The notes below the pieces were generated by a model. That model had not been told where the DNA came from, did not search any database, and worked only from the letters and a program-made list of their open reading frames with translations. Source: an uncultured delta proteobacterium (lineage in GTDB: Bacteria > Desulfobacterota > Binatia > Binatales > Binataceae). Taken from it: a stretch of DNA of 64,000 nucleotides. The position numbers and the translations under genes are program-made. The stretch's first letter is position 1. Each line of letters opens with the position of its first letter. The stretch is taken from positions 512,001-576,000 of the forward strand of contig CAVXXK010000001.1 in assembly GCA_963765675.1 (NCBI GenBank), read 5' to 3'. This document shows positions 36,008-50,928 of this stretch, in pieces.

Positions 36008-39000
36008 TCACGGCTCCTTGCTGGAGGCGGCGTGCGGCGCCCATTTCAGGATTCCTAGATCGGCGACGAAAATCGCGTAAAACGATTTGACCAGGATCAG
36101 CTCGATCACCGTAGCGAGTGCGAGTCCTCCGATCTGCGCGTAGCACAGCGGCTGCCAGAGCGGGCCGCCGTGCAGCGCCAGCGGAAACAGCGCCAGCACA
36201 GTTGCGCCCACGGTCACCATCACCGGCCGCAAGCGCTCGATTCCCGCGTCGAGCAATCCCTGGATCAGCTCCTCACCCATCTCACGGCGCTCTTCGATAA
36301 ACTCGAACAGCACGATTACGTGACTGACGATCACGCCGACGAGACTCGCGATGCCCAAAAACGCCATGAAGCCGAACGGCGCACCCATGATCCAAAGCGC
36401 GGCGACCGCGCCGACCGCGCCATACGGCACCGCCACGAACACCAGCCACGGCTTTACGAGATTGTTGAACTGCACCACCAGCGCGACGAAGATCAGCACC
36501 ACAGAAATCAACAGCACTACCGCCAGTTGGCCAAAGCCCTCGCTCTGCTTGGCCTGCTCGCCGCCGATCTCGAGGCGGTAGCCAGGCGGCAAGTGGCTGG
36601 CGATCTCTTTGAGCTTCGGGGTCGCGATCTTCATGACTTCCGACGGAAGCACGCCGGGAGCCGGATAGGCGACCACGGAGATCGTGCGAAAGTGATCGCG
36701 CCGGACGATCCGCTCGGGCGACAAGCGAAACACGATTGGCGCAACCGCCTGGATCGGAACCCGCCCGTTTCCTTGCGACGCAAAGATGTAAAGACTTCCC
36801 AGGTCTGAAAGCTGGGCGCGCTCCTGCTGGCGAAGGCGCGCGACGATCGGGATGCGCAGGTCACCGCTGATCAGCGTTCCCACCTGCGCTCCGGAAAGGC
36901 CCGCGGCGGCGGAATTGGCGATGTCCTGATTGGTTACACCGGCCAGATTCGCGCGATCGGGATTTATCGGCAGATCGATGACCGGACTCTCGGCCATCCA
37001 GTCAGTGCGGATGCGCCGCGCACCGGGAACCGAGCGCAGCACCGCCTCGGCCTGGTTGGCGATATTCTGAAGCGTCTCGATATCCGCCTGCTCGCGCGCC
37101 GGATCGATATCGGCCTGGCCGAAGATATGCACCTCGATTGGATAGCGCACCGGATTGGTGAGCAGTTGGCACACGTCAACGTATGCGCCGGGAACTTCCT
37201 TCGACAAGAGATTCTGGAGCGGGCCGACAAACTTCGGCATGTCTTCCTTATTTTCGATCTCGAGGATCAACTGCGCGTAATTAGCCTGTGGTGATTCCGG
37301 TGACACCGAAAACCAGAAGCGCGGCCCACCGCCGCCGACGAAGCTGGTGATCGATTTCAGGATCGTGCGCGGATGACCATGCTCGGGATGTTCCTTGCCA
37401 TATTCCGCGGCCGCGTTGCGCACCACTGCCGCGACTTTTTTCGCGGTGGCGTCAGTTTGAGAAATCGCCGCGCCGTTGGGAAGCCATACGTCGATATACG
37501 ACAGGTACTGCACATCCTCGGGAAAGTAGGCGCTGCGCAATTGCTTCGCGATCAGAAACCCCGCGATCAGAAACAGCATCGAGCATGCAACAAACGTCTT
37601 GCGATGCTCCAATGCGTAGTGCCCAATCCGGTAGTACACGCCGGTAGCGCCGTGGCTGCGCCGATACTCGATCGGCGGCAGCGGTTTTCCGGGCCGCATC
37701 AGGTAGTAACCGAGTTGCGGAATAAAGGTCATCGAAATGATCCGCGACGCGACCAGTGCGCAGGTCATCACGATCGGCAGGCTGTAGAGAAAATTCCCGG
37801 TGTCGCCCGAGAGCAACAGAAACGGCAGGTAGGCAACGATATTGGTGATGGTCGAGAACAGGATTGCACGTTCGAGCTTGGTCGGCCCAAGCCACGACGC
37901 GACTTCCGCCGGATGCCCGAGACCCAGATCGTGCTTGATCGCGTCGCCCGCCACCACCGGATCGTCCACCAACAGTCCAAGGGCGATGATCAAGGTCGCG
38001 ATCGACACCTGCTGGAGATCGATGCCGAGCACGTACATCATGCCGAACGTCATCGCGAGCGTGAGCGGAATTGACAGCGCGATCAGCAGCGCCGCGCGCC
38101 AATCCCAGAATCCGATCAGCGCAATGACGACCACCAGCGCGATCGCCTCGTACAGCGCACCGATGAACAGATGCACATTTTCGCGAACCTGGAGCGGCTG
38201 ATCGGAGGTGCGCGCGACTACGAGGTCCTCGGGCAGGCGGGTCTTCAGTCCCGCGATCGCCTTGTCGACTGCCGCGCCGAAGGCGCTTATCTGCTCGCCC
38301 GAGCGCATGAATACCGCGATCGTTACCGCCCGGCCGCGGTTCCAGTGCCCGTCGGCGGTCTTCCAGGTATAGAAATTCAGGAGCCGCGGCGGCGCTTCGT
38401 AACCGCGCGAGATATCCGCCAGATCGCGCAGGTAGAACGGCGATCCGGATTCCGACTTGCCGAGAATCACGTCGCCAATCTCCTGAGCGTCGGTAAATTC
38501 GCCGCTCGGATGCAGCGTCACGTCGGTGCCGGCCGCGTTGATCATCCCGGCCGACTGCGTGATATTTCGCGACGACAGAATCTGCGAAAGTTTGCTTGGC
38601 GTAAACCCGTACGACGCAAGCCGCTCTTGCGAGTAGACCAGGTTGACCCATTCCGGCAAAACGCCAGTGCGCGAGACCTTCTCGACGTCGGGAACCGCTT
38701 CCAGAGCACGCGAGATCAGATCGGTGTAGCGCTCGAGCTCGCGGTACGTGTACTTGTCACCCGCCGAGGCTTCGAGAATCGCCTCGGTCTGCGCCGGATC
38801 CCTGATCTCGACCGGCGGCCACGCGTCGGGATGAAACGCTTCGAACATCGAGGTCCCGACCTGGGAGTTGATATAGGCAGTCGCAGTTTTCACCAGGTCG
38901 GCGCCCGCAGGCTGTGCGGCGTCGAGGCCCGAAAAACCTGATCCGTCGAGCGGGCGAATATCGGTCGCCGCGTGATGCTCCGCCAGATAACGCGACAGCG

Positions 39001-39661
39001 CGTCGCGCACCCGCGTCACCGACTCGGCAGGCATCGTCGGCGGGAAGATCGTCACTAGCGAAATGCGATTGGATTTCGACTCCGGCGCGACGTTCGCGCG
39101 CGCTTTCTCGATCGCGGCGCGAACCTGACGCGCGCGTAGAGCAATCTCGACCTCGTTCACTTTGGGGCTCGCGACGGTCAGCATCAATGCCGCGGTATCG
39201 CCGAAATCGCTCTGGAACTGGATCGGGCCGGCTCCGTCAGGCAGATTGCGGATACTGGCGAGCTTGAGATTGATGTCGTTGAATTGCTTTTCGGTATCGC
39301 CGACGTTTTGAGTGAGCTGGATATAAACGATCGCGAGCCCGTCGAGCGTCAGCGATCGGATTCCGTAGTCGGTCCCGACGCCGGCGGGATGGATGTAGGA
39401 GTTGGTCGCGATCTTCTCCTCCATCTTGCGCGTTACGGTCTGTTCGATTTTCTCGGCGCTGACTCCTGGCCACGGACATATCGCGAGCGCCTGGCGCACT
39501 GGAATATCCGGATCCTTGCGCTTGGGCATGTGGAGGTAGCCGTAAATGCCCCACGCAACCACTGCGGCCAGCAGCACCCACGAGATGGCGCGATTCTCTA
39601 CAAAAAACCGCGCGGTGTTATGGGTCGTGCGGATTATTTCTTCGTCGCTGCGATGTGCCAT
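36008..39661 (-). CDS. RND efflux transporter permease (AcrB/AcrD/AcrF family)
   Basis: 1217 aa; SIPLTL, ALGLLVDD, ERLRPVMVT and PLALHGGPLWQPL motifs. Confidence 0.93.
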   Translation of the reverse strand: MAHRSDEEIIRTTHNTARFFVENRAISWVLLAAVVAWGIYGYLHMPKRKDPDIPVRQALAICPWPGVSAEKIEQTVTRKMEEKIATNSYIHPAGVGTDYGIRSLTLDGLAIVYIQLTQNVGDTEKQFNDINLKLASIRNLPDGAGPIQFQSDFGDTAALMLTVASPKVNEVEIALRARQVRAAIEKARANVAPESKSNRISLVTIFPPTMPAESVTRVRDALSRYLAEHHAATDIRPLDGSGFSGLDAAQPAGADLVKTATAYINSQVGTSMFEAFHPDAWPPVEIRDPAQTEAILEASAGDKYTYRELERYTDLISRALEAVPDVEKVSRTGVLPEWVNLVYSQERLASYGFTPSKLSQILSSRNITQSAGMINAAGTDVTLHPSGEFTDAQEIGDVILGKSESGSPFYLRDLADISRGYEAPPRLLNFYTWKTADGHWNRGRAVTIAVFMRSGEQISAFGAAVDKAIAGLKTRLPEDLVVARTSDQPLQVRENVHLFIGALYEAIALVVVIALIGFWDWRAALLIALSIPLTLAMTFGMMYVLGIDLQQVSIATLIIALGLLVDDPVVAGDAIKHDLGLGHPAEVASWLGPTKLERAILFSTITNIVAYLPFLLLSGDTGNFLYSLPIVMTCALVASRIISMTFIPQLGYYLMRPGKPLPPIEYRRSHGATGVYYRIGHYALEHRKTFVACSMLFLIAGFLIAKQLRSAYFPEDVQYLSYIDVWLPNGAAISQTDATAKKVAAVVRNAAAEYGKEHPEHGHPRTILKSITSFVGGGGPRFWFSVSPESPQANYAQLILEIENKEDMPKFVGPLQNLLSKEVPGAYVDVCQLLTNPVRYPIEVHIFGQADIDPAREQADIETLQNIANQAEAVLRSVPGARRIRTDWMAESPVIDLPINPDRANLAGVTNQDIANSAAAGLSGAQVGTLISGDLRIPIVARLRQQERAQLSDLGSLYIFASQGNGRVPIQAVAPIVFRLSPERIVRRDHFRTISVVAYPAPGVLPSEVMKIATPKLKEIASHLPPGYRLEIGGEQAKQSEGFGQLAVVLLISVVLIFVALVVQFNNLVKPWLVFVAVPYGAVGAVAALWIMGAPFGFMAFLGIASLVGVIVSHVIVLFEFIEERREMGEELIQGLLDAGIERLRPVMVTVGATVLALFPLALHGGPLWQPLCYAQIGGLALATVIELILVKSFYAIFVADLGILKWAPHAASSKEP

Positions 39662-40797
39662 TAGGGGATAATCCGGATTTGCTGGCCGTCGGTGACCATG
39701 GTCGCGCCGCGCACGATCACGCGGTCACCAATCGCAACTCCGGAGTCCACCGCGATTTCGTTGCCGACAATATCGCCCAGCCGCACCTTGTGCATCCGCG
39801 CGATCGTTTTGCCGCCCTCTGCGCTGGCGACGAATACGGCATAGCCGCTCGGATCCTCGGGTGGGCGGACCACTGCGTTTATTGGAACCGTCGCCGCGGT
39901 CGCGATTGGCGCGGACGCGTTGTTAGCGAGCTTGAGCGACGCGATCATCCCGACGCGTAAGCGGCCGTCCTTGTTCGGGATCGTGACCTCGACGTCGAAG
40001 GTGCGTGTGTTCTGGTCGGCGCTCTGCGCAATCCGCGTGATCTGCCCTTCGAGCTGCACGCCTGGCAGCGCCTCGGTGCGCAAGGTCTGCACTTGCCCCT
40101 GTTTCAACTGCCCCACTTCTATATCCGAGACTGCGAAGATCGCCTTCATCTCGGTCGTGTCGGCAATCTGAAACGCAACGACGCTCGGGCCGACCAGCGA
40201 ACCGATTTCGATTCCGCGGCTCAGCATCACGGCGTTCATAGGCGAGGTCAGCTTGCAGTAACCGAGATTGATCTGCGCCTGCTTGAGCGAGGCCTCGGAC
40301 TGCTTCACCTGCGCATCGGAAGACCTGTACTGTTGGACGGCATTGTCGTAGTCGCGTTGCGCGATGATCTTTTCCTTGAACAAGGCGCTATTGCGATTGT
40401 AGTCGGCCTTTGCCTTCGCATAGGTCGCCTCCGCATTGACCAGCACCGAGGCGGCCTGATTGACCTGCTGCTGATAGGGTCCGGTCTGAATCGTCGCGAG
40501 CAGTTCGCCGTTTTTTACGGGATCGCCGCCCTGGATATCGCGGGTGCGTCCTCCCGCTCCCGCAACTTGCTTGATCGTCTCGACATAGCCGTTGACCTGA
40601 AATGTCAAGCCAACCTGGCGGTAGGGCTGAAGGTTCGCGGTGTATGCGCCGCGATGGGCCTGCGTAGCCTCTCTGACCGCGCGCACGGTTACCGCAATCG
40701 GCGGCTCGGTGGTGGGGTTCGGGTGATTACCGCATCCGACTCCGCCGGCGATTGCCGCTACAATCAGTAATGCAAGCGAAAGATTGCGTATGTGCAA
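39661..40797 (-). CDS. RND periplasmic adaptor (membrane fusion protein), probable lipoprotein
   Basis: Lipobox-like GVGC; barrel-sandwich motifs, LTSP, TRTFDVEVTIPN and LRVGM; TTG start chosen after GGAGG. Confidence 0.88.
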   Translation of the reverse strand: MHIRNLSLALLIVAAIAGGVGCGNHPNPTTEPPIAVTVRAVREATQAHRGAYTANLQPYRQVGLTFQVNGYVETIKQVAGAGGRTRDIQGGDPVKNGELLATIQTGPYQQQVNQAASVLVNAEATYAKAKADYNRNSALFKEKIIAQRDYDNAVQQYRSSDAQVKQSEASLKQAQINLGYCKLTSPMNAVMLSRGIEIGSLVGPSVVAFQIADTTEMKAIFAVSDIEVGQLKQGQVQTLRTEALPGVQLEGQITRIAQSADQNTRTFDVEVTIPNKDGRLRVGMIASLKLANNASAPIATAATVPINAVVRPPEDPSGYAVFVASAEGGKTIARMHKVRLGDIVGNEIAVDSGVAIGDRVIVRGATMVTDGQQIRIIP

Positions 40798-40913
40798 GTC
40801 GCTCCCTCCCGAATGGCTCCGCGTACGTGCCGAATCCTCCGCCACGCGCCGCCCTTCCTGCCCCAAATGCGCTCGCGATGTTATCAGAAATCACTCAGCC
40901 TCCGCGCTACCCC

Positions 40914-41945
40914 TTACGCATAGATGCGAGAGGTATCGCGAATCCGGGCTTTGATTTCGTCGCGGAGTGTTTTGGGTTCGAGCACCTTGATAAACGGGCT
41001 CATCGCCATGATCCAATTGGCAAGCTCCGCTGTCCCTTTGAGTCTGAGCCGCAAGAGCGTCCGGCCGTCGCGCGCTACCGAAAGCTGTTGAGAAGGGTGA
41101 ATAGTGCGCGCACCAAGGCGAGCGTCCGTTTCCGGACTGAGGCTTTTCAGTACTACCGTCGTCTCGCGATCCTCACTGACGATCCCGAATGTTCCTTGCA
41201 CGAATGCCGCGGGATTGTATGACGCGGGCAGCTGGAATCTTTCGTCAGTGCCGGAATCGTCTTTGATGAATTCCACCGAGCGCATCCGCTCGACGGCCAA
41301 ATAGATAATCCCCGAGCCGCGATGACTGCGGCCCAGTAGATATAGTCCGCCGCGATATTGAACCAGGGTGTACGGATTGAAGTCGTGCTTCCGATCGCTG
41401 CCATCGGTCCGATTCATCGACGCATAGTGGATCCGCAGGCGCTTCTCGTCGAGCAGCGCGCGCATAATCACGTCGATCTGTTCTTCATACGGACGATAAT
41501 CTTTGGGGACGTACTGCACGGTGTAGAACTTGCGATTGAAGTCGCGCAGCCTGAACTGCCACGCTGGCGGCAGGTTGGTCCGCACCCGCTCCCAGATATC
41601 GTCAACGCCCGACTTGAGCACGGTGCCCTCGAGAAATTTCAGCAACGCCAGGCTCGAGTACATCGCTGCCGCCTGATACACGTTCGAGCTCGGCCCTCCC
41701 CGCCGCGCCACCAATCGCAGCTTGCGGCTCGCACCGGCGCCCGCCGTCTCGACCACCATTTGCCCCAGCTTTCCGCGCATCCTCACGAACTCGCGCACGT
41801 AGCGGTCCACCGTGCGTCCACTGACCCCAAGCTCGCGCTTAATTCTCTGGAGCGGCACTCCGAGCGGCTCTTCCGTCAGCATCATCGCGATTCGCGCGTA
41901 ACGGATTCCCGACTCATAGGTTGGTTTTCTTGATTTGACCACCAT
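40914..41945 (-). CDS. WYL-domain transcriptional regulator (HTH-WYL-WCX; YafY/DriD/PafBC superfamily)
   Basis: HTH ELGVSGRTVDRY; WYL core IHY.S...FNPYTL..YRGGLYL.G...YLAVERM; WCX IHPSQ...LANWIMAM...VLEP..LR; AAGGAGG ribosome-binding site. Confidence 0.92.
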   Translation of the reverse strand: MVVKSRKPTYESGIRYARIAMMLTEEPLGVPLQRIKRELGVSGRTVDRYVREFVRMRGKLGQMVVETAGAGASRKLRLVARRGGPSSNVYQAAAMYSSLALLKFLEGTVLKSGVDDIWERVRTNLPPAWQFRLRDFNRKFYTVQYVPKDYRPYEEQIDVIMRALLDEKRLRIHYASMNRTDGSDRKHDFNPYTLVQYRGGLYLLGRSHRGSGIIYLAVERMRSVEFIKDDSGTDERFQLPASYNPAAFVQGTFGIVSEDRETTVVLKSLSPETDARLGARTIHPSQQLSVARDGRTLLRLRLKGTAELANWIMAMSPFIKVLEPKTLRDEIKARIRDTSRIYA

Positions 41946-41970
41946 CGGCGCCTCCTTCAGAGGCATCCGG

Positions 41971-42019
41971 ATTATAGCTGCTCGCTAAGACAACCGCTGT
42001 CTTGTGGAGCAGTTATAAT
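41971..42019. promoter_or_regulatory. Symmetric bidirectional promoter/operator between the WYL gene and recC
   Basis: ATTATAGCTGCTCGCTAAGACA-ACCGC-TGTCTTGTGGAGCAGTTATAAT; arms 18/22 complementary; TGTCTT-N10-TATAAT on both strands. Confidence 0.8.
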
Positions 42020-42085
42020 GAGCGTGTTGGACGAGGCAAATCGAAACCCATATCGTCAGCCTTAAGGCACGGAGAGAAACGGGGG

Positions 42086-45000
42086 ATGCTTAGACTTCAC
42101 TACTCGAATCGGCTCGAAGGATTGATCGAGCCGCTCGCACACTCGATCACCGAGCAGCAACGGCGCGATCCGCTGCGGAAGATCTCGATCGTCGTACCGA
42201 GCCGAGCCGTCGAGCAGTTCGTGAAGTACCAGGTCGCCGAGCGTCTGGGAGTCGCTGCCAATCTCAGTTTTCCGTTCTTGCGCGCGCGTCTGACCAATGT
42301 TGTACACAGCGCCGACCCTCGGCTCCGCGTGCTCGATGCGAACGCGCTTCAACTCGTCATCTTCAACACTCTGATGAGTCAGAAAAATCGCGCCGGTTCG
42401 GAGCTCTCGCCCGCCTGGAACTACATTGACGCCGGCGGCAGCCGCGGCACTCCCGAGGCGGAGCTGCGAGCCTTCGAGTTGTCAGGACGGGTGGCAAAGC
42501 TGTTCGAAGAATACTCGATTTCGCGCCGCGCGATGCTCGCGCAGTGGAGTAGCGGCCGCGTGACTGCAGCCGGCACTGCAATCGCCGAAAATGAAAATTG
42601 GCAACAGGCTCTATGGCGAATCATCTTCGCGAGCGGCGCCGCGAATCCTGAATGGACTGGCGACGCGGCTCACGACTGGATGCTGCTGCCGGACGCTTTC
42701 GCGCGAATCGGCGACGCGGCACTGGCCGACGCGATGCGCGACGGACTCCTCCACGTGTTCGGACTCGCGTCGCCGGGCCAGGCTTATGCGGAGATTTTCG
42801 CGCGGCTCGGTAAGCTTGGCGCGCTTTCGATATACGCGCTCAATCCATGCCGGGAATTCTGGGAAGACCTGGATACCTCGCGCCGCTCTGCCCGGACTGA
42901 TTGGATCCATCGCGGAAGCCGGATTGGCGCTGATCTCGACACGAGCGAAGATCCATTCGGCCTCGCCGCCGGCGACAATCGCGCGCTCGAGCTTTGGGGC
43001 CGTCCCGGCCGCGAATATATCCGTCTGCTCAATGAGCTCAGCGATTGCGATTTCGAATCGAACTTTATCGACCAGCCCGATGGCAAAGGCGCGTCGCTTC
43101 TTTCGCGTGTTCAGCAAGATATCCTCGACCGCTCGCGCGGTGCTCAACTGCTGGACGCTCCTTCGACGGCAAGCATCAGCTTTCTGGCGTGTCCCGGAAT
43201 CCAGCGCGAGGTCGAGATTGTCGCGAACGGGATCTGGCGGCTCTTGAAGCAGAGCGCATCCGGAAAGAATCCGCTTCGCTTTCACGAAATCGGCGTGCTG
43301 ATTCCGGACACCGAGTGCGAGGCTTACGCGCCCTACATTGAGGCAGTCTTCGCGCGAATCCACGGCATCCCGGTCGAGATCAGCGGACGCAGCGTTGCGC
43401 GCCAAAGCCGCGTCGCCGAAGCAATCAGCCTGCTGCTCAAGCTCCCGCTCGGCCGGTTTACGCGCGCGGATCTGCTGCGCCTCCTGAGGCATCCTGCGCT
43501 CAGTGGCGGAGACCCTACGCTCGACGTTGAACTGTGGGATACCTGGTGCGAAGAGCTGGGAGTTTTCTTCGGCGCCGATGGGGGCGATCCAGCCGCGACC
43601 TATATTCCGCCCAATCTTTTCAATTGGGACCAGGCGCTCAAGCGACTCGCGCTGGGAGCATTCATGTCGGGCGAACGCAGCGGCGACGATCGTTTGTTCG
43701 AATCAGCCGCAATCGGCGCCTTGATGCCGCTAGAGATCGACGAAAGTGAAATCCCCGCGGCGCAGGTGTTCGTCGGCACCGCGCGCGCTCTGCTTGCCGA
43801 CGCGAACGCGATCAGGTCGGCGCGAATGAGCCTCAGCCGATGGGCGCAACTGCTCACGCGGATGATCGAGCGGTACATCATCGCCGACGAGCCCGAAGAT
43901 CGGCAGATGCGCGACCGATGCCTGGCTGCAATTGACGCGATACGTACAGAGGAAATCGAAAGCCCTGAGGTATCCTACGCCGTGGCGGAAGCGATGGCCT
44001 CGGTGCTGATTGAAGAGCTCGGCGCGCGCCAGGTCCGCTTTGCGGGGCATGGAGTAGCGGCAGGCGCGATGGGCACCCTGCACTCAATTCCTTTTCGCGC
44101 GATCTTCGTTATGGGTCTCGGCGAGTCGTTTTTTCCGGCGCGCGATCCTCGCGATCCGCTCGATCTTCGCGGGATCCGGCGCCACGCCGGCGACTTGAGT
44201 CCGACCGATCGCGATCGCTACACGTTCCTCGAATCGATTCTCGCCGCGCGCGAGCAGATCGCGTTCTCGTATGTCGCACGCGACGCGCATACTGGAGACA
44301 CGCTTGAGCCCTCGACGGTAATTCGCGAACTCCAATTCATTCTCCGCTCGTACCTAAAGGAGGACGCCGTCGATGCTCTGACCCTGACCCATCCCGTCAG
44401 CCGTTATGATCTCGCCTACTTCGGAGACCTTGGCGGCGTCGTATCGTCGCTCAACGGGCTCAGCGTCGATAGCGCTGCGCGCCAAGGCGCGCGAATCACG
44501 GCGTTGCGCGAGAATCTGGACCGTTACACCGATGACGCCGCGCGTCTGGACGCGCGCGAGCTGCTGGCAGCGCTCTCGCCCCAAGCGCGCGAGGCTCTGC
44601 GTCCCGATCTGCGGATTCCGAAGATCGATGGAGCGGCCGAGGTCGCGGAGCGCGACGCCGACTTGTATCTGCCGGTCGCTGCGTTACGCAAATTTCTCGA
44701 GTGTCCTGCGCAGGGCGCCGCGCGTTATGCGCTGGGCATGAGCGAAGACGAAGACGCCGACGAAGATATCGTCGACGAACCGGTCGACATGACCAGGCTC
44801 GACCAGGTGATACTGCTGCGCGAGCTGTTTTGGAAGCTGCCGCCGACCGAGGCCGCCGCCGAATCCGAATACGTGCGCGCGGCCGCGCTCGCGCAGATGA
44901 AGGGACGCGCACCGGCAGGTCCAATCGCCGATACATTGCGCGATCAGGACCTGGGTTTGATCCGGGGCTGGACTAAGTCCGCTGAGAAAGCGAATGCCGG

Positions 45001-45682
45001 CAATTTGTCGAAGTGGAAAGAGTTTCGTATCGGCCGCGCCGACGAGCACGCGTCATTGGCGCAAGAGATTCTGCCCTATCTGGTACTCGAAGTGCCGGTG
45101 CGGACGGCGCCCGGCAACATTATCACGCGGCGAGTCAGGCTCTACGGAAGCGTCGGAGTCTTCTCACCCGGATTCGACGCCGCGTTGCAATGCCTCACGC
45201 GCAAGGACGCCAAGGCCAAACATTTCCTGCCCCTGTTCCTGAACGCGATTGTGCTCAAAGCGGCGGGCGAGCCAGTTGCAAAAAAGTTCAGAGCGATCCT
45301 GGTGAGCGCCGGGGCCGAGAGCGAAAAGCCGCCTCTGTGGATCAGAACGCTGCGCGTGCCAGAACAGAATCAGACGGTCGAGTATCTCACAACACTCGTC
45401 AGTGATCTGCTTTCCGGGCCGCACGATTATTTCCTTCCAGTCGAAGGGGCGGAAGAAGTTTACAAGTTGTCGCGAAAAGGCAGCGGCGCGGAAGAAGCCG
45501 TGTCGGCGCTCGAAGAAATGCGCGATCAGGAACGTGACCGTGGGTTACCCAGCTCCGCGTATGGACCTGTGCGCCGATGGCGCGAACTCGAACTGCCTGG
45601 CGCGCAAGGAGTCTTCGAGCTCGTGAATCGCCGCTTCGGGCCGACCAGGTCGCTGTTCGACGATGAGGACGCGGGCGAATGA
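42086..45682 (+). CDS. recC: Exodeoxyribonuclease V gamma subunit
   Basis: MLRLHYSNRLE.L, LGVAANLSFP, LNPCREFW.D, WGRPGRE, LSRVQQDI, REVEI, IPFRAIFVMGL, DRYTFLESIL and PS.VI.EL motifs. Confidence 0.93.
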   Translation: MLRLHYSNRLEGLIEPLAHSITEQQRRDPLRKISIVVPSRAVEQFVKYQVAERLGVAANLSFPFLRARLTNVVHSADPRLRVLDANALQLVIFNTLMSQKNRAGSELSPAWNYIDAGGSRGTPEAELRAFELSGRVAKLFEEYSISRRAMLAQWSSGRVTAAGTAIAENENWQQALWRIIFASGAANPEWTGDAAHDWMLLPDAFARIGDAALADAMRDGLLHVFGLASPGQAYAEIFARLGKLGALSIYALNPCREFWEDLDTSRRSARTDWIHRGSRIGADLDTSEDPFGLAAGDNRALELWGRPGREYIRLLNELSDCDFESNFIDQPDGKGASLLSRVQQDILDRSRGAQLLDAPSTASISFLACPGIQREVEIVANGIWRLLKQSASGKNPLRFHEIGVLIPDTECEAYAPYIEAVFARIHGIPVEISGRSVARQSRVAEAISLLLKLPLGRFTRADLLRLLRHPALSGGDPTLDVELWDTWCEELGVFFGADGGDPAATYIPPNLFNWDQALKRLALGAFMSGERSGDDRLFESAAIGALMPLEIDESEIPAAQVFVGTARALLADANAIRSARMSLSRWAQLLTRMIERYIIADEPEDRQMRDRCLAAIDAIRTEEIESPEVSYAVAEAMASVLIEELGARQVRFAGHGVAAGAMGTLHSIPFRAIFVMGLGESFFPARDPRDPLDLRGIRRHAGDLSPTDRDRYTFLESILAAREQIAFSYVARDAHTGDTLEPSTVIRELQFILRSYLKEDAVDALTLTHPVSRYDLAYFGDLGGVVSSLNGLSVDSAARQGARITALRENLDRYTDDAARLDARELLAALSPQAREALRPDLRIPKIDGAAEVAERDADLYLPVAALRKFLECPAQGAARYALGMSEDEDADEDIVDEPVDMTRLDQVILLRELFWKLPPTEAAAESEYVRAAALAQMKGRAPAGPIADTLRDQDLGLIRGWTKSAEKANAGNLSKWKEFRIGRADEHASLAQEILPYLVLEVPVRTAPGNIITRRVRLYGSVGVFSPGFDAALQCLTRKDAKAKHFLPLFLNAIVLKAAGEPVAKKFRAILVSAGAESEKPPLWIRTLRVPEQNQTVEYLTTLVSDLLSGPHDYFLPVEGAEEVYKLSRKGSGAEEAVSALEEMRDQERDRGLPSSAYGPVRRWRELELPGAQGVFELVNRRFGPTRSLFDDEDAGE

Positions 45683-48600
45683 ACGGCGCGATATATATCC
45701 GTCCCTCCGTCATCGACAAAATCGGACTCGGCACGCATCGCGTGATCGAGGCCAGTGCCGGCACCGGCAAGACCTTCACGCTCGAGCATCTGATTGTCGA
45801 GTTGCTGATTCGCGGAGAAGCGAAGCTCGATCAAATCCTGGCCGTCACCTTCACTCAGCGCGCGACCGCGGAGCTGCGCGCTCGCGTTCGCGCCGCGATC
45901 GATCGCGCTCTGCGCGCGGCGTATGCAGACGATAAAGCAATCAAATCGGCGTTCCCCGGCATCGACCTTGTTGCGCCGCTCGAGGCGGCGCTGTTTTCTT
46001 TCGAGCGTGCGCCGATTCACACGATTCACAGTTTCTGCCAGCGAGTCCTGACTGAACTCGCATTCGATACTGGCGCGAGGTTCGGGACCGAGGCCGCCGA
46101 TGGACGCGCTTTGTTCCACGAGGCGTTCCGCGCGGTGTTGCGCGAAAAAAGAATAGCTAGCGCCGAATACTCCGAGCCCCTTGAGAAATGGATTAAGGAT
46201 TCGGGCAAGCCGGTTGACGACCTCGAGAAGATGCTCTTCGAGGTGAACAGCAATCATTATGATCCGGAAAATGGCGCAACGGCGGCGTCGATCGAATCTC
46301 GGCTGGCCAACCTGTTCCTGCCGCCGATGCGCGAATGGCTGAGCGCGGAAAAGTTCCGCCGCGGCGTGATCGACTATGACGACATGCTCGAACGTGTTCA
46401 TCAGGCGCTCGAGGACGACACGGACGGCAGGCTCGCTGCGGCGCTGCGCGCGCGGTACTGCTTCGCTCTGATCGACGAGTTCCAGGACACCGACCAAATC
46501 CAGTGGGCAATCTTCCGCAAAATCTTTGTCGACGGAGATACGCAGAGCGCCTTGTATCTGATCGGCGATCCCAAGCAGGCAATCTATTCATTTCGGGGCG
46601 CCGATGTTCACGCTTACATGCGGGCGCGCGACAAAATTGCCGCGCCGCCGAATGATCCGATTGCGCTGACCGAGAATTTTCGCTCGACCGCACCGATGAT
46701 CGCCGCGGTCAACGCGATTTTGGATCAGAACGCGAATCCACCGCTGTTCAACAGCACGATCAAATATCAGAACCCGGTCTTCTGCGGGCGCGAAGATCTG
46801 TGTGCTAAGGCGGGTGGCAAAGAGCTGACACCGATCACGCTGATTACGGCGAAACACGACGCGAAATATAAGGCGGCGGCCCTGAGGCGGATGCTCGCGT
46901 GCCGGATCGCCGCGACGATCAAGGCGATCGTGAATGACCCTGACTCGGCGATCACCGTCACTGACGGCGCGAAGTCCGGACCGGCGGTCACGTACGGAGA
47001 TATTTTTATTCTGACCAACACTAACGCCGAAGGAATCAAACTTGCCGAGTATCTCCGCGCCGAAGGCGTCCCGTATGCATTCTACAAACGCGAAGGATTG
47101 TTCCAGACCGATGAGGCGCGCGATGTTCTCGACATGCTGCGAGCCGTCGCCGCGCCTAACAATCGATCGCATCGCCTGAAGGCGTGGGCGACGCCGTTCT
47201 TCGCCATCCCGATGCGCGAGCTCGCAAAGTTGGATGAGCCGGCACCTTCCGATCCACTGATGGCGCGATTGGCGAAGTGGCACGGGCTCGCGAAGGAGGG
47301 AGATCTCGCGGAGTTGTTCGACTCGCTGCTCGAAGAGAGCGGCCTGGCGGCGCGCCAACTGTTTGGGGCACCAAATCTCCGCGAGCTTACCAACTACGAA
47401 CACCTCTTCGAGTTGATCCTCACTGAATCGCTCAGGGAAGGATGGTCGATCGCGGAAATTATCGATCGTCTCGGCGCTTACGTCGGCGAGTATCGGCTGC
47501 CGTCGGGCGAGGATCCTAATCTCATGCGGCTCGAAAGCGAACGCGCGGCGGTCCAGATCATGACGATTCACAAAGCCAAAGGGCTCGAAGCGCGAGTCGT
47601 TTTTCTCTTCGGCGGTTTCTTCGCGAACAACAGTCCGCGTCCGGTGAAGATTTATCATGACCAGGAAAGCGTTCGCCGCCTCGCTATCGGCAGCGCCGCG
47701 CAGCTCATGGAACGCGGGCCGATCAAGCAAGACGAGGCCGAAGAGGATCAGCGGCTGCTGTACGTAGCGATCACGCGCGCACGCGCAAAACTTTATCTCC
47801 CTTATTTTCCAACCAGACCCGGAAAACTTGATCTGTCCGGAAGATACAAGCAGCTGAATGATCGACTGCGCGCCATGGACGCGGCCGGACAGCTTGCAGC
47901 GCCTCTGTTCGAGACCGTTGCGCTGGAAATGGAGCCACGCGAGATCAGCGCGAACGCAAATCCGATCAGCGGATGGCGGCCTCCGGCAAGCCTGCTCGCG
48001 GACCCGAGCGCCGTAAAACTCGAAAGCGAGCTCGCGACCCTAGCACACAGATGCGCCGCGCTTTCGACAGTATCGTACACGTCGTTAAATCGCCGCGCCG
48101 TACCGGAACTCGATCTGAGCGAATACAAGGAACCTATCGCCGAGGCTCCAGGGACCGCATCGGAGCCCGCTGGAGGCGCCGCGGCCGGAATCTTTCTGCA
48201 CGAGACGATCGAAAAGCTCGATCTGAAAGCTCTGGCCGTCGCACGCGATCTTGCTTCATGGAGCGCGCTCGACGAGGTTCGCGAGCTGTTCGATTCCGCA
48301 CTGCGGCGTCATCAGGTGCCTGAACGCGAGCGCTGGATGATCCGCGGCCCGGAGCTCGTCTTCAACACCCTGCGATCGCCAATCGCGGCTGGAGCCACGA
48401 ACATCCCCGCACTGGCCGGATGCGAGTCCTCGCGCGAGATGGAGTTCACGTTTCCGATACCCGAGGCCGGGCACGGCCTGCTCGCTTCCGCGCGGGCGAA
48501 TGACGCCGCGCGATGGCGAATCGAGCGGGGCGTGTATGTTGGATTCGTGGATTTCGTTTTCCGCCACGAAGATCGCGTCTACTTCGCCGACTGGAAGAGC

Positions 48601-48886
48601 GACCTGCTCGACTCGTACGAACCCGACTCGGTCGCGCAGCACGCGCGGAATAATTACAGTCTGCAGGCAAAAATCTACACCATCGGCGTTACGCGCCTGC
48701 TTGGCATTCACACCGAGGCGGAGTACGAGGCCGGGTTCGGCGGCTTGCTCTACCTGTTTATTCGGGGCATCACGCCCCGCGGCGGCGGAAATCGTGGTGT
48801 CTACTTTTATCGTCCGCCTTGGGCCGAAGTGGTGCGCGCAGAAGGCGAGCTGATGCGGCCGTTTCGAAATGGTGGGCAACCGATGA
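45679..48886 (+). CDS. recB: Exodeoxyribonuclease V beta subunit (N-terminal part of the 45679-50928 ORF as sequenced)
   Basis: IEASAGTGKT, VTFT, TIHSFC, IDEFQDTD, IGDPKQAIYSFRGAD, NFRS, MTIHKAKGLE, LYVAITRA; nuclease motif GFVDFVF......ADWKS. Confidence 0.92.
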
Positions 48887-50928
48887 AGCCCCTTTATTCT
48901 CTGCTCGGAATGGACACGGCCACTCAGCGCAGCGCCCGTGCGGAGCGCGCCGCTACGCAGTTCGAAACCGACATGGCGCGTCTTCGCGCGTCGGTCGCCG
49001 AACTCAATCTCGATCCCGGCACGGTGCATCTGGCGGCGGAAATCGCAGCGCTCGAGCCCGCCTTCGAGCTGGACGACAGCGCGCGGTTCGCGCTGATTGT
49101 GCTGATTGTCCTGTCGCTGGCCGCCGTCGCTGAGGGCAACACGCGATTTCCCGTGAGCGGCGATGAATCGAAACAACCGCTGGAGCGGATGCTTTCCGCC
49201 CTGATGGCGCCGCCTTTCGACGATTTCACGCGCGAGCGGGTCGAGCAGAAAATCGCGGAGATTCTCGCCGCTGATAGCGCGCCTGCGGTAATCGGACGAA
49301 GTCCCGACTCGCGCCGTCCGCTGCTTTATCTGAAGCCGTATCTTTACCACGAGCGAATCTACCGCGCCGAGCAAAGACTTGCCGAACGCCTGGCGGCGTT
49401 GGTGGACATCGATGGCGAGCCAAACATGCCGGCGATCGCAAAGTCACTTGCGGATGTGGTTGCTCGTCCGGCGATGATCGCCGGCACCGCAGCGGTTCTT
49501 TCTGACGAACAACGCCGGGCGGTCGGAATCGGCGCGAGTTCGCGGCTTGCGATAATTTCTGGCGGCCCGGGAACTGGCAAGACTTCGATAATCGCGGCGA
49601 TCCTGCGGGTGCTGGTGCGCGTTGGGATTGATCCCGCGGCCGTCGCACTGGCCGCTCCAACCGGGAAGGCCGCCTACCGGATGAGTGAGTCGATCCGCAG
49701 CACGATCGGATCGATCGAAAATCCGGCTCCAGAAGATTCCACGCTCGCCGCCGCGATTCCTGCTGCGTCCACGATTCATCGCTTGCTCGGGTTTTCGAGC
49801 ACACGAAGATCTTTTATTCATCATCGCGGCAATCCGCTCGACGCGTCGGTCGTAATCGTCGATGAGGCGTCGATGCTCGATCTGACGTTGATGGATCATT
49901 TGACCGGGGCGCTTCGGCCGCAGGCGCGCCTGGTGATTGTCGGTGACGCCGATCAGTTGCCGTCGGTTGCCGCGGGCGCGGTGCTGCGCGATCTGATGCC
50001 GGCAGCGGAACCGGCCGCATCCGCCGCTATGGCGGGAGTAAGCGCAACGCTCAGCAAGAACTATCGCGCGAGGGCCGAGGACACGGGCGGAGCGGCGATC
50101 GCAATGGCGGCGCGGCAAATCAACGAGGGGCGCGCGGATCTGATCTCGGCCGCCGACAGTCCGGTAGTCAGGAGGGCGACTGCAGCCGAGATCGCGTTTT
50201 CCGGCGTCGAGCTCGTCACCGGCGCGTCGGAGTCACTGCCGGAATTTCTGTCGTTATTCGCGCGGAAACAAATCGAGTCCGATGAGTACGCTGCGATGGC
50301 GCAGGAAAATTATACGTTCGAAGACGGTGCGTTCAGCGCCGAGGACGCGGCGACAATAGCGCGGATGCTCGCGCATCTGGCGCGAGCCAGGATCCTTTGC
50401 GTGACACGGATTGGACGTTGCGGCGCCGACGCGATCAACGCGCGGATGCATCGCGCTGCGCCGGGCCGCAGCATTCCGCCCGAGCGCGGCGCGATGATCG
50501 CGGGCGAGCCGGTGATTGTTATGCGCAACGACTACGATCACATGCTGTTCAACGGCGATCAGGGCGTGCTGGTGAACCTTGCCGAGCGCGGTGGACGCCG
50601 CTCGCTCGCGGCAGTGTTCACGCGAGAGACGGGCCTTGCCGCGTTTCGAATCGAAATGCTGTCGGACGCGATCGATCTGTGCTACGCGATGACGGTGCAT
50701 AAGGCGCAAGGCTCGGAGTTCGATTGCGTCGCGCTGATTCTGCCCGAGCGCGACATGCCGCTGCTCTCGCGCGAGACGATCTACACGGCAGTCAGCCGCA
50801 GCCGGCGATCATGCGTGATCTTTGGCGACAAGGATCTGCTCGAACAAGCCGTGGCGCGGCGTAGCGAACGGTTCTCCGGACTCGCGCAGGCGATCGAGCG
50901 CTATCGTGCCGGTAATACCGGCGGCTGA
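48883..50928 (+). CDS. recD: Exodeoxyribonuclease V alpha subunit (in frame with recB as sequenced)
   Basis: ISGGPGTGKT, AAPTGKAA, TIHRLLG, VDEASM, VGDADQLPSV, NGDQG, YAMTVHKAQGSEF, YTAVSR; own ATG at 48883 after GGTGG. Confidence 0.9.
   Translation: MKPLYSLLGMDTATQRSARAERAATQFETDMARLRASVAELNLDPGTVHLAAEIAALEPAFELDDSARFALIVLIVLSLAAVAEGNTRFPVSGDESKQPLERMLSALMAPPFDDFTRERVEQKIAEILAADSAPAVIGRSPDSRRPLLYLKPYLYHERIYRAEQRLAERLAALVDIDGEPNMPAIAKSLADVVARPAMIAGTAAVLSDEQRRAVGIGASSRLAIISGGPGTGKTSIIAAILRVLVRVGIDPAAVALAAPTGKAAYRMSESIRSTIGSIENPAPEDSTLAAAIPAASTIHRLLGFSSTRRSFIHHRGNPLDASVVIVDEASMLDLTLMDHLTGALRPQARLVIVGDADQLPSVAAGAVLRDLMPAAEPAASAAMAGVSATLSKNYRARAEDTGGAAIAMAARQINEGRADLISAADSPVVRRATAAEIAFSGVELVTGASESLPEFLSLFARKQIESDEYAAMAQENYTFEDGAFSAEDAATIARMLAHLARARILCVTRIGRCGADAINARMHRAAPGRSIPPERGAMIAGEPVIVMRNDYDHMLFNGDQGVLVNLAERGGRRSLAAVFTRETGLAAFRIEMLSDAIDLCYAMTVHKAQGSEFDCVALILPERDMPLLSRETIYTAVSRSRRSCVIFGDKDLLEQAVARRSERFSGLAQAIERYRAGNTGG

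What the first reader, a model, noticed from the sequence alone, without database searches (positions are those of the whole stretch)
40914..50928. WYL regulator divergently paired with a recC-recB-recD operon: candidate ssDNA-inducible RecBCD module
Seen: a full HTH-WYL-WCX gene starts 140 bp from recC, back to back, and recC, recB and recD follow with coupled starts. Established: WYL factors (mycobacterial PafBC, Caulobacter DriD, defence-island BrxR/CapW) sense nucleic-acid ligands such as ssDNA and control LexA-independent DNA-damage or anti-phage genes. E. coli recBCD is expressed at a low level and is not SOS-induced. RecBCD itself generates ssDNA and oligonucleotides and destroys linear phage DNA. 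Inference: a dedicated WYL sensor could form a feedback loop in which RecBCD products induce more RecBCD, for break repair or as an inducible anti-phage nuclease. I do not know of this pairing being described, but I cannot search the literature.
Basis: partly seen in the sequence, partly recalled or inferred. Interest (0 to 1): 0.85.

Follow-up and report, generated by a model that had tools for sequence, protein, structure and literature searches.

The report
WYL regulator paired with recBCD operon
An uncultured soil bacterium keeps a DNA-damage-sensing type of regulator gene back to back with its RecBCD break-repair genes, sharing one palindromic control site, which looks like a small local version of damage responses already known from mycobacteria and Caulobacter.

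Summary
A 343-aa wHTH-WYL-WCX gene (40914-41945, minus) lies 140 bp from recC (42086-45682), with recB following by a 4-nt overlap. In this assembly recB and recD are one 1749-aa frame. The cause is one extra T (48861-48863) that three congeners lack.

The intergenic region holds a 13-bp palindrome, GACAAC-C-GCTGTC (41989-42001). A TATAAT box lies 12 nt outside each half-site, and there is no -35 element. This matches the geometry of PafBC and DriD activator promoters.

The divergent pairing and the palindrome occur in 49 of 68 homologue loci, with WYL identity down to 44%. In a 401-genome class sample, 36 genomes have the pairing. The recC-linked WYL proteins form a near-clade.

The regulator is probably not dedicated to recBCD. 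The same site precedes a Zn-ribbon plus DUF5925-AAA ATPase pair, and a near-palindrome (1 mismatch here, exact in one other genus) precedes the addBA-like operon.

Best reading: a DriD-like, probably ssDNA-activated homodimeric activator of a small double-strand-break regulon. WYL control of RecBCD is already in print: it is shown for the PafBC regulon and predicted for DdaA. This is therefore a new member of a known kind. No expression or binding data exist.

The parts
40914..41945 (-). wyl: 343-aa wHTH-WYL-WCX transcription factor (P0001)
   Evidence: Pfam WYL and WCX. The translation starts at the ATG at 41945, behind AAGGAGG. AlphaFold model pLDDT 76. Foldseek best matches are DriD at 2e-16 and PafBC at 1.5e-12.
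41971..41976 (-). -10 box (TATAAT on the minus strand) of the inferred wyl promoter, 12 nt from the left half-site
   Evidence: Read. It is part of the 22-nt inverted-repeat arm 41971-41992. The same TATAAT at 12 nt occurs in 4 of 50 intergenic regions, and 6 of 50 have TANNNT there. In 31 of 50 regions GATGAT or GATAAT lies at 13 nt instead.
41989..42001 (.). Operator: palindrome GACAAC-C-GCTGTC (core GAC-N7-GTC), centred about -31 of both inferred promoters
   Evidence: Present with at most 1 mismatch in all 50 wyl-recC intergenic regions, 45 of them exact. There are 6 exact sites in the 4.5-Mb genome against 0-2 for six scrambled controls. Ten other genomes show enrichment against a backwards control.
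42014..42019 (+). -10 box (TATAAT) of the inferred recC promoter, 12 nt after TGTC; no -35 element
   Evidence: TANNNT lies exactly 12 nt after TGTC in 46 of 50 intergenic regions. The promoter scan finds no canonical -35/-10 pair in 41700-42300. The geometry equals the PafBC motif tGTCgg(N10)tA(N3)T (PMC8635444, passages).
42049..42061 (+). Conserved leader element CATATCGTCAGCC, function unknown
   Evidence: The core ATATCGTCA is kept (the flanking bases vary) ahead of recC in 9 of the 10 genus-level intergenic regions printed (not in L078), including the three with 205-566-bp regions.
42086..45682 (+). recC (1198 aa, P0002)
   Evidence: Pfam Exonuc_V_gamma and RecC_C. TIGR01450 scores 339 bits, below its 583-bit cut-off. 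It is the only PF04257 match in the genome.
45679..48882 (+). recB part of the fused frame (residues 1-1068 of P0003)
   Evidence: UvrD-helicase and UvrD_C domains. TIGR00609 scores 542.6 bits, below its 696-bit cut-off. One extra T at 48861-48863 relative to G005, G009 and G010 removes the stop.
48883..50928 (+). recD part of the fused frame (residues 1069-1749 of P0003)
   Evidence: TIGR01447 recD scores 373.6 bits, above its 310-bit cut-off, on residues 1112-1737. recD is a separate ORF in G005, G009 and G010.

Best explanation
The WYL gene encodes a DriD-like transcription factor that probably acts as a homodimer. It binds the palindrome GACAAC-S-GYTGTC (core GAC-N7-GTC) between itself and recC.

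The site takes the place of the missing -35 element of two mirror-image promoters. One reads into wyl and the other into recC-recB-recD.

On DNA damage, single-stranded DNA made at processed breaks would bind the WYL domain. That would switch the factor on, so that RNA polymerase starts at both promoters.

The same site precedes a small set of other genes: a Zn-ribbon protein with a DUF5925-AAA ATPase, the addBA-like operon and, in some genomes, rmuC. The protein would therefore be a local regulator of a small double-strand-break regulon that acts beside LexA, not a private switch of RecBCD.

Status of each step:
- Shown: the anatomy, its conservation, and the promoter geometry.
- Inferred: binding, the ligand, the sign of regulation, and the feedback loop.
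For: 1. Linkage. Divergent recC lies beside the WYL gene in 49 of 68 homologue loci, with WYL identity 44-97% and RecC identity 44-86%. In a 401-genome class sample, 36 genomes have the pair adjacent and divergent. On a quick tree the recC-linked proteins need only 2 label changes, against a shuffled mean of 16.1.
2. Operator. The palindrome is present in 50 of 50 intergenic regions. It also lies just upstream of wyl in 14 of the 19 unlinked loci.
3. Enrichment. There are 6 exact sites in G000 against 0-2 in scrambled controls. Ten other genomes have 3-19 strand hits each, against 0-1 for the backwards control.
4. Promoter geometry. TANNNT lies 12 nt after TGTC in 46 of 50 regions. Mirror arms of 22 nt were found. 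No canonical -35/-10 promoter was found. The published PafBC motif is tGTCgg(N10)tA(N3)T without a -35 (PMC8635444, passages). DriD sites overlap the -35 position at a fixed distance from the -10, in promoters that lack a -35 (PMC13004042, passages).
5. Protein. Foldseek gives DriD 2e-16, PafBC 1.5e-12, and CapW/BrxR about 1e-7. R44, D47 and R48 align with DriD's base-reading Arg37, Glu40 and Arg41. R48 is invariant and R44 nearly so in 32 sequences (PMC10853764, passages).
6. The operator goes with the regulator. 0 of 15 genomes without the WYL gene have the palindrome upstream of recC. G384, whose WYL gene lies elsewhere, has an exact site 112 bp upstream of recC.
7. Regulon recurs across genera:
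   - Site, then Zn-ribbon, then DUF5925-AAA in G205 and G384.
   - Sites before both genes in G000.
   - DUF5925-AAA beside wyl in 6 unlinked loci.
   - The Zn-ribbon gene sits between the site and recC in L067.
   - A site about 100 bp upstream of addB in 8 of 9 genus loci and in G187.
Against: - There are no expression, start-site or binding data, and no RNA run was listed.
- The sign of regulation is open. Several target promoters carry a TGn extended -10 (my reading). Such promoters can work without a -35, so a protein at -31 could repress instead.
- Only about 5 of 8 DriD ssDNA-contact positions are kept: Y174, R185, H187 (for Arg), R198 and Y202. The two beta-6 arginines align with I214 and A217. 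This rests on a weak pairwise alignment (E 3e-6).
- With one mismatch allowed, the palindrome is not enriched in G000 (16 sites against 6-25 in controls). The addB and DUF5925-AAA sites of G000 therefore rest on conservation, not on statistics.
- 2 of the 6 exact sites in G000 lie inside genes, and one lies between convergent genes.
- 24 of 63 family genomes with recC have no such WYL gene at E <= 1e-30.
- Related genomes are not independent counts.
- The tree is the quick version, because the careful search did not finish.
Confidence: 0.6

Rival explanations
1. The anatomy is the same but the sign is opposite. The WYL protein is a CapW/BrxR-type repressor. It sits on the palindrome over the -35 position of both promoters and leaves when ssDNA binds, which de-represses wyl and recCBD.
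For: - CapW and BrxR are wHTH-WYL-WCX factors. CapW is published as a repressor released by ssDNA, with RecBCD products implicated (PMC11662680, passages).
- Both appear among the fold matches (E about 1e-7).
- Several target promoters have TGn before the -10 (my reading), so they may not need an activator.
Against: - The fold matches to the activators DriD and PafBC are stronger by 5-9 orders of magnitude.
- The TGTC-N12-TANNNT spacing equals that of the PafBC activator motif (PMC8635444).
- DriD-activated promoters have the same build without a -35 (PMC13004042).
- No defence system lies nearby.
Confidence: 0.25
2. One reading: a dedicated sensor that makes RecBCD an inducible anti-phage nuclease, driven by a private feedback loop.
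For: - The back-to-back pairing is conserved.
- RecBCD is accessory beside a near-universal AddAB-like pair.
- This family's RecC scores far lower against the Pfam model than RecC of other families in the class: mostly 158-203 bits, down to about 100 for full-length matches, against 246-333 bits.
Against: - The operator also precedes other genes here and in relatives.
- WYL homologues with the same operator are paired with other genes in 19 of 68 loci.
- The surroundings are housekeeping genes.
- PADLOC gives only generic WYL and helicase hits.
Confidence: 0.1
3. The palindrome serves only autoregulation of wyl, and recCBD is a neighbour that is not controlled by it.
For: - Unlinked homologues also carry the palindrome upstream of their own gene (14 of 19).
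- DriD homologues are reported to carry their site in their own promoter (68 of 69; PMC10853764, passage).
Against: - The -10 at the fixed 12-nt spacing is better conserved on the recC side (46 of 50) than on the wyl side (6 of 50 at 12 nt; GATGAT or GATAAT at 13 nt in 31 of 50).
- G384 keeps an exact site upstream of recC although its WYL gene lies elsewhere.
Confidence: 0.05

Closest known systems
DriD of Caulobacter crescentus (homodimeric wHTH-WYL-WCX activator of an SOS-independent damage response)
   Same: - It is the best fold match, full length, E 2e-16, and the best sequence match among solved structures.
- The operator is palindromic with the same core spacing: GAC-N7-GTC here, CGAC-N7-GTCG in DriD.
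- The base-reading Arg-x-x-Glu/Asp-Arg of the recognition helix is kept.
- The site lies in its own promoter.
- The site sits over the position of a missing -35, at a fixed distance from the -10 (PMC10853764 and PMC13004042, passages).
   Different: - About 19% identity.
- The inner bases of the operator (AAC-S-GTT) are fixed and G+C-containing here. DriD sites are reported to be AT-rich in the centre.
- The two beta-6 arginines that touch ssDNA in DriD are not kept.
- The published DriD targets I saw are didA, recA, recJ, bapE and dnaG, not recBCD.
- Here one site serves two mirror-image promoters.
PafBC of mycobacteria (WYL activator acting by sigma adaptation)
   Same: - The promoter motif tGTCgg(N10)tA(N3)T without a -35 has the same TGTC-12 nt-TANNNT spacing (PMC8635444).
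- It is ssDNA-triggered (PMC11804915, abstract only).
- Its regulon includes RecBCD and AdnAB, both end-resection complexes (PMC8223512, passage). Here the inferred targets are recCBD and the addBA-like operon.
   Different: - PafBC is a heterodimer or fusion of two WYL proteins on a non-palindromic site, with a regulon of about 150 genes and a link to the proteasome locus.
- Here there is a single gene, a palindromic site and a handful of targets.
- LexA is also present.
DdaA of Moraxellaceae and SiwR of Mycobacterium smegmatis (WYL activators)
   Same: - DdaA: in basal lineages that still have LexA, it is reported to be predicted to control a few genes, including recA, recC, sbcC and ftsH (PMC12392091, passage). 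That resembles the small regulon here, including a site upstream of ftsH and one homologue beside sbcDC.
- SiwR: it controls adjacent genes through a -26 region and binds ssDNA (PMC10693628, abstract and section 12).
   Different: - The operators differ (DdaA: CGWCA-N5-TGWCG, about 50 bp upstream of the start site), as do the lineages.
- Neither paper, as far as I read it, describes a divergent WYL-recC gene pair.
CapW/BrxR (WYL repressors of defence systems)
   Same: Same domain build, a palindromic operator at the promoter, and ssDNA as signal, with RecBCD products implicated (PMC11662680, passages).
   Different: - They sit beside CBASS/BREX systems and repress.
- No defence genes lie nearby here.
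- The fold match is weaker (E about 1e-7).

Membership tests
wHTH-WYL-WCX transcription factors (class A WYL factors) | WYL domain followed by a WCX domain | tested here: met
   Pfam WYL on residues 164-232 (46.6 bits, cut-off 21.8) and WCX on 276-344 (45.1 bits, cut-off 23.9) of the 350-aa ORF.
wHTH-WYL-WCX transcription factors (class A WYL factors) | N-terminal winged helix-turn-helix | tested here: met
   Pfam and NCBIfam did not find it. The model has three helices and a two-strand wing in residues 10-78. The whole chain aligns to DriD over 341-350 columns.
wHTH-WYL-WCX transcription factors (class A WYL factors) | Binds a nucleic-acid ligand (ssDNA) in the WYL domain | tested here: inconclusive
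   About 5 of 8 DriD contact positions are kept and the two beta-6 arginines are not, on a weak alignment (PMC10853764, passages). Binding itself cannot be tested here.
DriD-type activators | Palindromic operator with GAC-N7-GTC core, read by two arginines of the recognition helix | tested here: met
   The operator is present in 50 of 50 intergenic regions. R44 and R48 align with DriD Arg37 and Arg41. R48 is invariant and R44 at least 90% conserved. The N-terminal alignment stretch alone is weak (about 2 bits).
DriD-type activators | Site overlaps the position of a missing -35, at a fixed distance from the -10 | tested here: met
   46 of 50 regions have TANNNT at 12 nt. No -35/-10 pair was found.
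DriD-type activators | Activates transcription when ssDNA is bound | not testable with these tools
   No RNA run was listed, and there are no biochemical data.
PafBC | Two WYL subunits (PafB and PafC, or a fusion) on a non-palindromic site | tested here: not met
   There is a single 343-aa gene and a palindromic site. The only other WYL gene in the genome is a 227-aa HTH_11-WYL protein on another contig.
CapW/BrxR defence regulators | Encoded beside, and controlling, a phage-defence system | tested here: not met
   The neighbours are recCBD, HlyD/AcrB, 6PGD and G6PD. PADLOC gives only generic WYL and helicase models.
RecBCD (exonuclease V) | RecC, RecB (SF1A helicase plus nuclease) and RecD (SF1B helicase) encoded together | tested here: met
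   RecD is above its NCBIfam cut-off. RecC and RecB are below theirs, at 339 of 583 and 543 of 696 bits. The RecB nuclease motif was read by eye against a recalled E. coli motif.
RecBCD (exonuclease V) | Three separate subunits | tested here: not met
   recB and recD form one frame in this assembly, caused by one extra T. They are separate in G005, G009 and G010. An assembly error is not excluded.

The most novel reading that the evidence does not exclude
One WYL dimer on a single palindrome drives two mirror-image promoters that both lack a -35. ssDNA released by RecBCD and AddAB at breaks, or at linear phage DNA, then raises the sensor and both resection machines together: a self-amplifying break-response unit. 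Its most widely kept partner, a Zn-ribbon protein with a DUF5925-AAA ATPase of unknown function, would be a new DNA-damage-response module.
Probability: 0.3. Interest if true: 0.6.

Novelty: new member of a known kind. Interest (0 to 1): 0.45.

Why it matters
- It extends the WYL-type, SOS-independent damage response to an uncultured soil phylum (Binatota, by the record titles of relatives). The system is compact and easy to test: one regulator, one 13-bp site, two promoters.
- It shows by comparative genomics that control of end-resection enzymes by a WYL factor is not peculiar to actinobacteria.
- It offers a natural bidirectional promoter for studying how a symmetric dimer can serve RNA polymerase in both directions.
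- It flags the Zn-ribbon plus DUF5925-AAA pair as an uncharacterised, probably damage-linked module. A full-text search for 'DUF5925' found no paper.

Tried and rejected
- Canonical promoter: none found in 41700-42300.
- SbcCD downstream of wyl: rejected. The two genes are HlyD and AcrB efflux parts, and they are conserved beside wyl only in the 6 closest loci of 68.
- Large regulon including recA: no exact or 1-mismatch site was seen at such genes in G000. Not every 1-mismatch site was annotated.
- rmuC as a target in G000: only a 3-mismatch half-site upstream, although G205 has an exact site there.
- Palindrome with one mismatch allowed: not enriched in G000 (16 sites against 6-25 in controls).
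- RNA evidence: no RNA holder listed.
- Reads over the recB-recD junction: three runs laid nothing. One gave a ~90%-identical contig of a relative, so the same-organism question stays open.
- Careful tree: not finished in 288 s. The quick tree was used.
- Supplements of papers were not opened. The PafBC and DdaA regulon tables in them may bear on how recBCD and recC are controlled there.
- Complex prediction, the search of protein representatives, the search for homologous proteins and the Atlas were not used.

Claims that rest partly on unpublished genomes:
- G010.
- G107.
- G356: one of the 36 linked genomes.
- G380: one of the WYL-only genomes.
- G203: one of the recC-positive genomes.

Full report
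**What is there.** The region holds four reading frames of interest.
- On the minus strand, 40914-41966 carries Pfam WYL and WCX domains.
- The ATG at 41945 is preceded by AAGGAGG. It lies downstream of the inferred promoter, so I take 40914-41945 (343 aa) as the gene.
- On the plus strand, recC starts at 42086 (MLRLHYSN), 140 bp away.
- recB starts at 45679 and overlaps the recC stop by 4 nt.
- No stop separates recB from recD. One 1749-aa frame runs to 50928, with recB and recD models matching its two parts.
- Aligned with three congeners, the window has one extra T in a T run at 48861-48863. This removes the ATGA stop/start overlap seen in the others.
- A ~90%-identical contig from one soil run also lacks that base, but no data from the same organism were laid. 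A real fusion and an assembly error therefore both remain possible.

**The regulator.**
- Sequence profiles did not see an HTH.
- An AlphaFold model built on 32 homologues (pLDDT 76) has a three-helix, two-strand winged HTH at residues 10-78.
- The model matches full-length DriD (Foldseek E 2e-16), then PafBC (1.5e-12), then CapW and BrxR (about 1e-7).
- By sequence, the best solved relatives are also DriD chains (E 3e-6).
- In that alignment R44, D47 and R48 fall on DriD's Arg37, Glu40 and Arg41. The DriD paper shows these residues read the guanines of its CGAC-N7-GTCG site (PMC10853764, passages).
- R48 is invariant and R44 nearly so among 32 homologues.
- Of eight DriD residues that touch ssDNA, about five have like counterparts. 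The two beta-6 arginines do not. This rests on a weak alignment.

**The control region.**
- The 140 bp contain a 22-nt-arm inverted repeat, 41971-41992 and 41998-42019.
- Its core is GACAAC-C-GCTGTC (41989-42001), which is GAC-N7-GTC.
- Its outer ends are two TATAAT boxes, each 12 nt from TGTC on its own strand.
- A scan for canonical -35/-10 promoters finds none.
- TGTC, 12 nt, TANNNT is the spacing of the PafBC motif tGTCgg(N10)tA(N3)T. That motif marks promoters without a -35, where the factor supplies the missing contact (PMC8635444, passages).
- DriD-activated promoters likewise lack a -35. They carry the DriD site over that position at a fixed distance from the -10 (PMC13004042, passages).

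**Is the pairing conserved?**
- Among 41 relatives, the 11 genomes of the window's genus (G000 included) all have recC divergent from the WYL gene. In the other genera that had a match, recC is not beside it.
- A scan of one genome per species returned 68 loci. 49 have divergent recC-recB, with WYL identity 44-97% and RecC identity 44-86%.
- I then sampled 401 genomes of the class. recC was found in 148 and the WYL clade (E <= 1e-30) in 109. The two are adjacent and divergent in 36: 7 of 7 genomes in the window's genus, 27 of 29 in a second genus, one in a third, and one genome of another family at a 1-kb distance.
- Within the family, 63 genomes have recC. Of these, 35 have the pair, 4 have the WYL gene elsewhere and 24 have none. 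11 genomes have the WYL gene without recC.
- On a quick maximum-likelihood tree of 64 WYL proteins, the recC-linked ones form a near-clade with one nested subclade that lost the link. That is 2 changes, against a shuffled mean of 16.1.
- The pairing therefore looks like one old event, kept through deep divergence. It is not a general property of recC.

**Is the site conserved?**
- All 50 wyl-recC intergenic regions carry the palindrome with at most one mismatch, and 45 are exact.
- On the recC side, TANNNT follows TGTC after exactly 12 nt in 46 of 50.
- On the wyl side, 6 of 50 regions have TANNNT at 12 nt (TATAAT in 4). 31 of 50 regions have GATGAT or GATAAT at 13 nt.
- 14 of the 19 unlinked homologues also have the palindrome just upstream of their own gene.
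- Genomes of the family that lack the WYL gene lack the palindrome upstream of recC (0 of 15). G384, whose WYL gene lies elsewhere, has an exact site 112 bp upstream of recC.

**Is the regulator dedicated to recBCD?** Probably not.
- G000 has six exact sites, against 0-2 for six scrambled controls. With one mismatch allowed there is no enrichment.
- Ten other genomes show 3-19 strand hits each, against 0-1 for a backwards control.
- The six exact sites in G000 are:
  - the wyl-recC region;
  - one before a 70-aa Cys-rich (Zn-ribbon-like) ORF, with GATAAT at 12 nt;
  - one 117 bp before a Hen1 RNA-repair gene, without a -10;
  - one inside tilS, upstream of ftsH, with TATACT at 12 nt;
  - one inside an MscS-type gene;
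  - one between convergent genes.
- Two one-mismatch sites stand out:
  - One lies directly before a DUF5925-AAA ATPase gene, with TTTAAT at 12 nt and an in-frame ATG 7 nt later.
  - One lies 100 bp before an addB-like gene.
- These targets recur elsewhere:
  - DUF5925-AAA is the neighbour of wyl in six unlinked loci.
  - In G205 and G384 an exact site is followed by the Zn-ribbon gene and then DUF5925-AAA.
  - In L067 the Zn-ribbon gene sits between the site and recC.
  - The addB site is present at -90 to -114 in 8 of 9 loci of the genus, in only 1 of 21 loci of other genera, and as an exact site in G187 of the second genus.
  - In G205 an exact site with TAAACT at 12 nt precedes rmuC. G000's rmuC has no such site.
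  - One homologue lies about 0.7 kb from sbcD/sbcC-like genes.

**Genome context.**
- G000 has LexA and a single recC.
- It also has an AddB-like (1078 aa, PD-(D/E)XK) and AddA-like (1187 aa, UvrD helicase plus nuclease) pair. Both are below the curated cut-offs.
- AddB-like genes were found in 23 of 24 family relatives. recC was found in 62 of 94. RecBCD is thus the accessory resection machine.
- The family's RecC also scores far lower against the Pfam model than RecC elsewhere in the class: mostly 158-203 bits, and about 100-124 bits for three full-length matches, against 246-333 bits for full-length matches elsewhere.
- The neighbours of the locus are efflux and pentose-phosphate genes. The efflux genes follow wyl only in the six closest loci.
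- PADLOC gives only generic hits.

**Most likely mechanism.** A homodimer binds the palindrome and, when ssDNA occupies its WYL domains, helps RNA polymerase start at both promoters and at the few other sites that lack a -35.
- The regulatory link rests on conserved anatomy.
- The activator sign rests on the promoter build and on the closest relatives.
- ssDNA rests on family resemblance.
- A feedback loop through resection products is inference. It is made plausible by the published finding that recB loss lowers, and recA loss raises, the response of the WYL factor CapW (PMC11662680, passages).
- A repressor reading remains a serious rival, because several targets have a TGn extended -10.

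**Comparison with print.**
- PafBC's regulon is stated to include RecBCD and AdnAB (PMC8223512, passage).
- DdaA in lineages that keep LexA is stated to be predicted to control a few genes, including recA, recC, sbcC and ftsH (PMC12392091, passage).
- SiwR controls adjacent genes through a -26 region (PMC10693628, abstract and section 12).
- I ran four searches: 'WYL domain' with recBCD (12 papers); PafBC with recC (8 papers); WYL with recC (351 papers, 15 listed); and Binatota, WYL, RecBCD and 'DNA damage response' with at least two terms required. By title and abstract listing, none gave a paper on a divergent WYL-recC gene pair or on this phylum. Supplements were closed.
- I therefore file this as a new member of the known class of WYL damage-response regulators. 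The new features are its operator, its mirror-promoter layout and its lineage.

**Limits.**
- All genomes are metagenome bins, and related genomes are not independent.
- Gene calls in flanks came from my own longest-ORF caller.
- Some counts include unpublished genomes: G010, G107, G356, G380 and G203.

Noticed in passing
window 48861-48885: recB and recD are fused into one 1749-aa frame by one extra T in a T run. Three congeners and a ~90%-identical soil contig lack that base. It is either a real RecBD fusion or a homopolymer assembly error.
   Followed up: partly
window 36008-40866 (minus strand): HlyD-type (401 aa) and AcrB-type (1217 aa) efflux genes follow wyl on the same strand after a 47-bp gap and may be co-transcribed with it. 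This arrangement occurs only in the 6 closest of 68 loci.
   Followed up: partly
window 42049-42061: The element CATATCGTCAGCC lies in the recC leader. Its core ATATCGTCA is kept (flanking bases vary) in 9 of the 10 genus-level intergenic regions printed, even where the intergenic region has grown to 205-566 bp. The second genus has a different conserved block just before recC. No function is assigned.
   Followed up: no
G000 C6:511320-511570 (L120:4001-4250) and G000 C1:1765790-1766967 (L165:1790-2967): A 70-aa Cys-rich (Zn-ribbon-like) protein and a DUF5925-AAA ATPase each lie behind the WYL operator. In other genera they form one operon behind it, or sit beside wyl. Their function is unknown, and no paper contains 'DUF5925'.
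   Followed up: partly
G000 C1:872492-879277 (L134:3493-10278): An AddB-like and AddA-like helicase-nuclease pair has a near-palindrome 100 bp upstream. Apart from that, a motif CTGTGGAT...CTCTTGC upstream of addB is seen across several genera of the family. It is unexplained.
   Followed up: partly
G000 C3:42402 (L122:4001-4013): An exact palindrome with TATACT at 12 nt lies inside tilS and points towards ftsH about 0.4 kb downstream. It is kept in two close relatives. ftsH is named among predicted DdaA targets in PMC12392091.
   Followed up: no
G000 C1:1728772 (L121:4001-4013): An exact palindrome lies 117 bp upstream of a Hen1-type RNA-repair gene. An 827-aa ORF on the same strand downstream was not scanned. 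No -10 lies at the usual spacing.
   Followed up: no
G000 C14:99417-100100 (L125:5418-6101): A second, unrelated WYL gene: 227 aa, HTH_11 plus WYL, no WCX match. It lies next to a glutathione S-transferase gene and a kumamolisin-type protease gene.
   Followed up: partly
class-wide: RecC of the window's family scores mostly 158-203 bits against the Pfam RecC model, and about 100-124 bits for three full-length matches. Full-length matches in other families of the class score 246-333 bits. The family's RecBCD may be a fast-evolving or separately acquired lineage.
   Followed up: no
L115, L116, L117: In three recC-linked loci the WYL gene matches in two pieces in different frames. These are frameshifts or assembly errors.
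   Followed up: no
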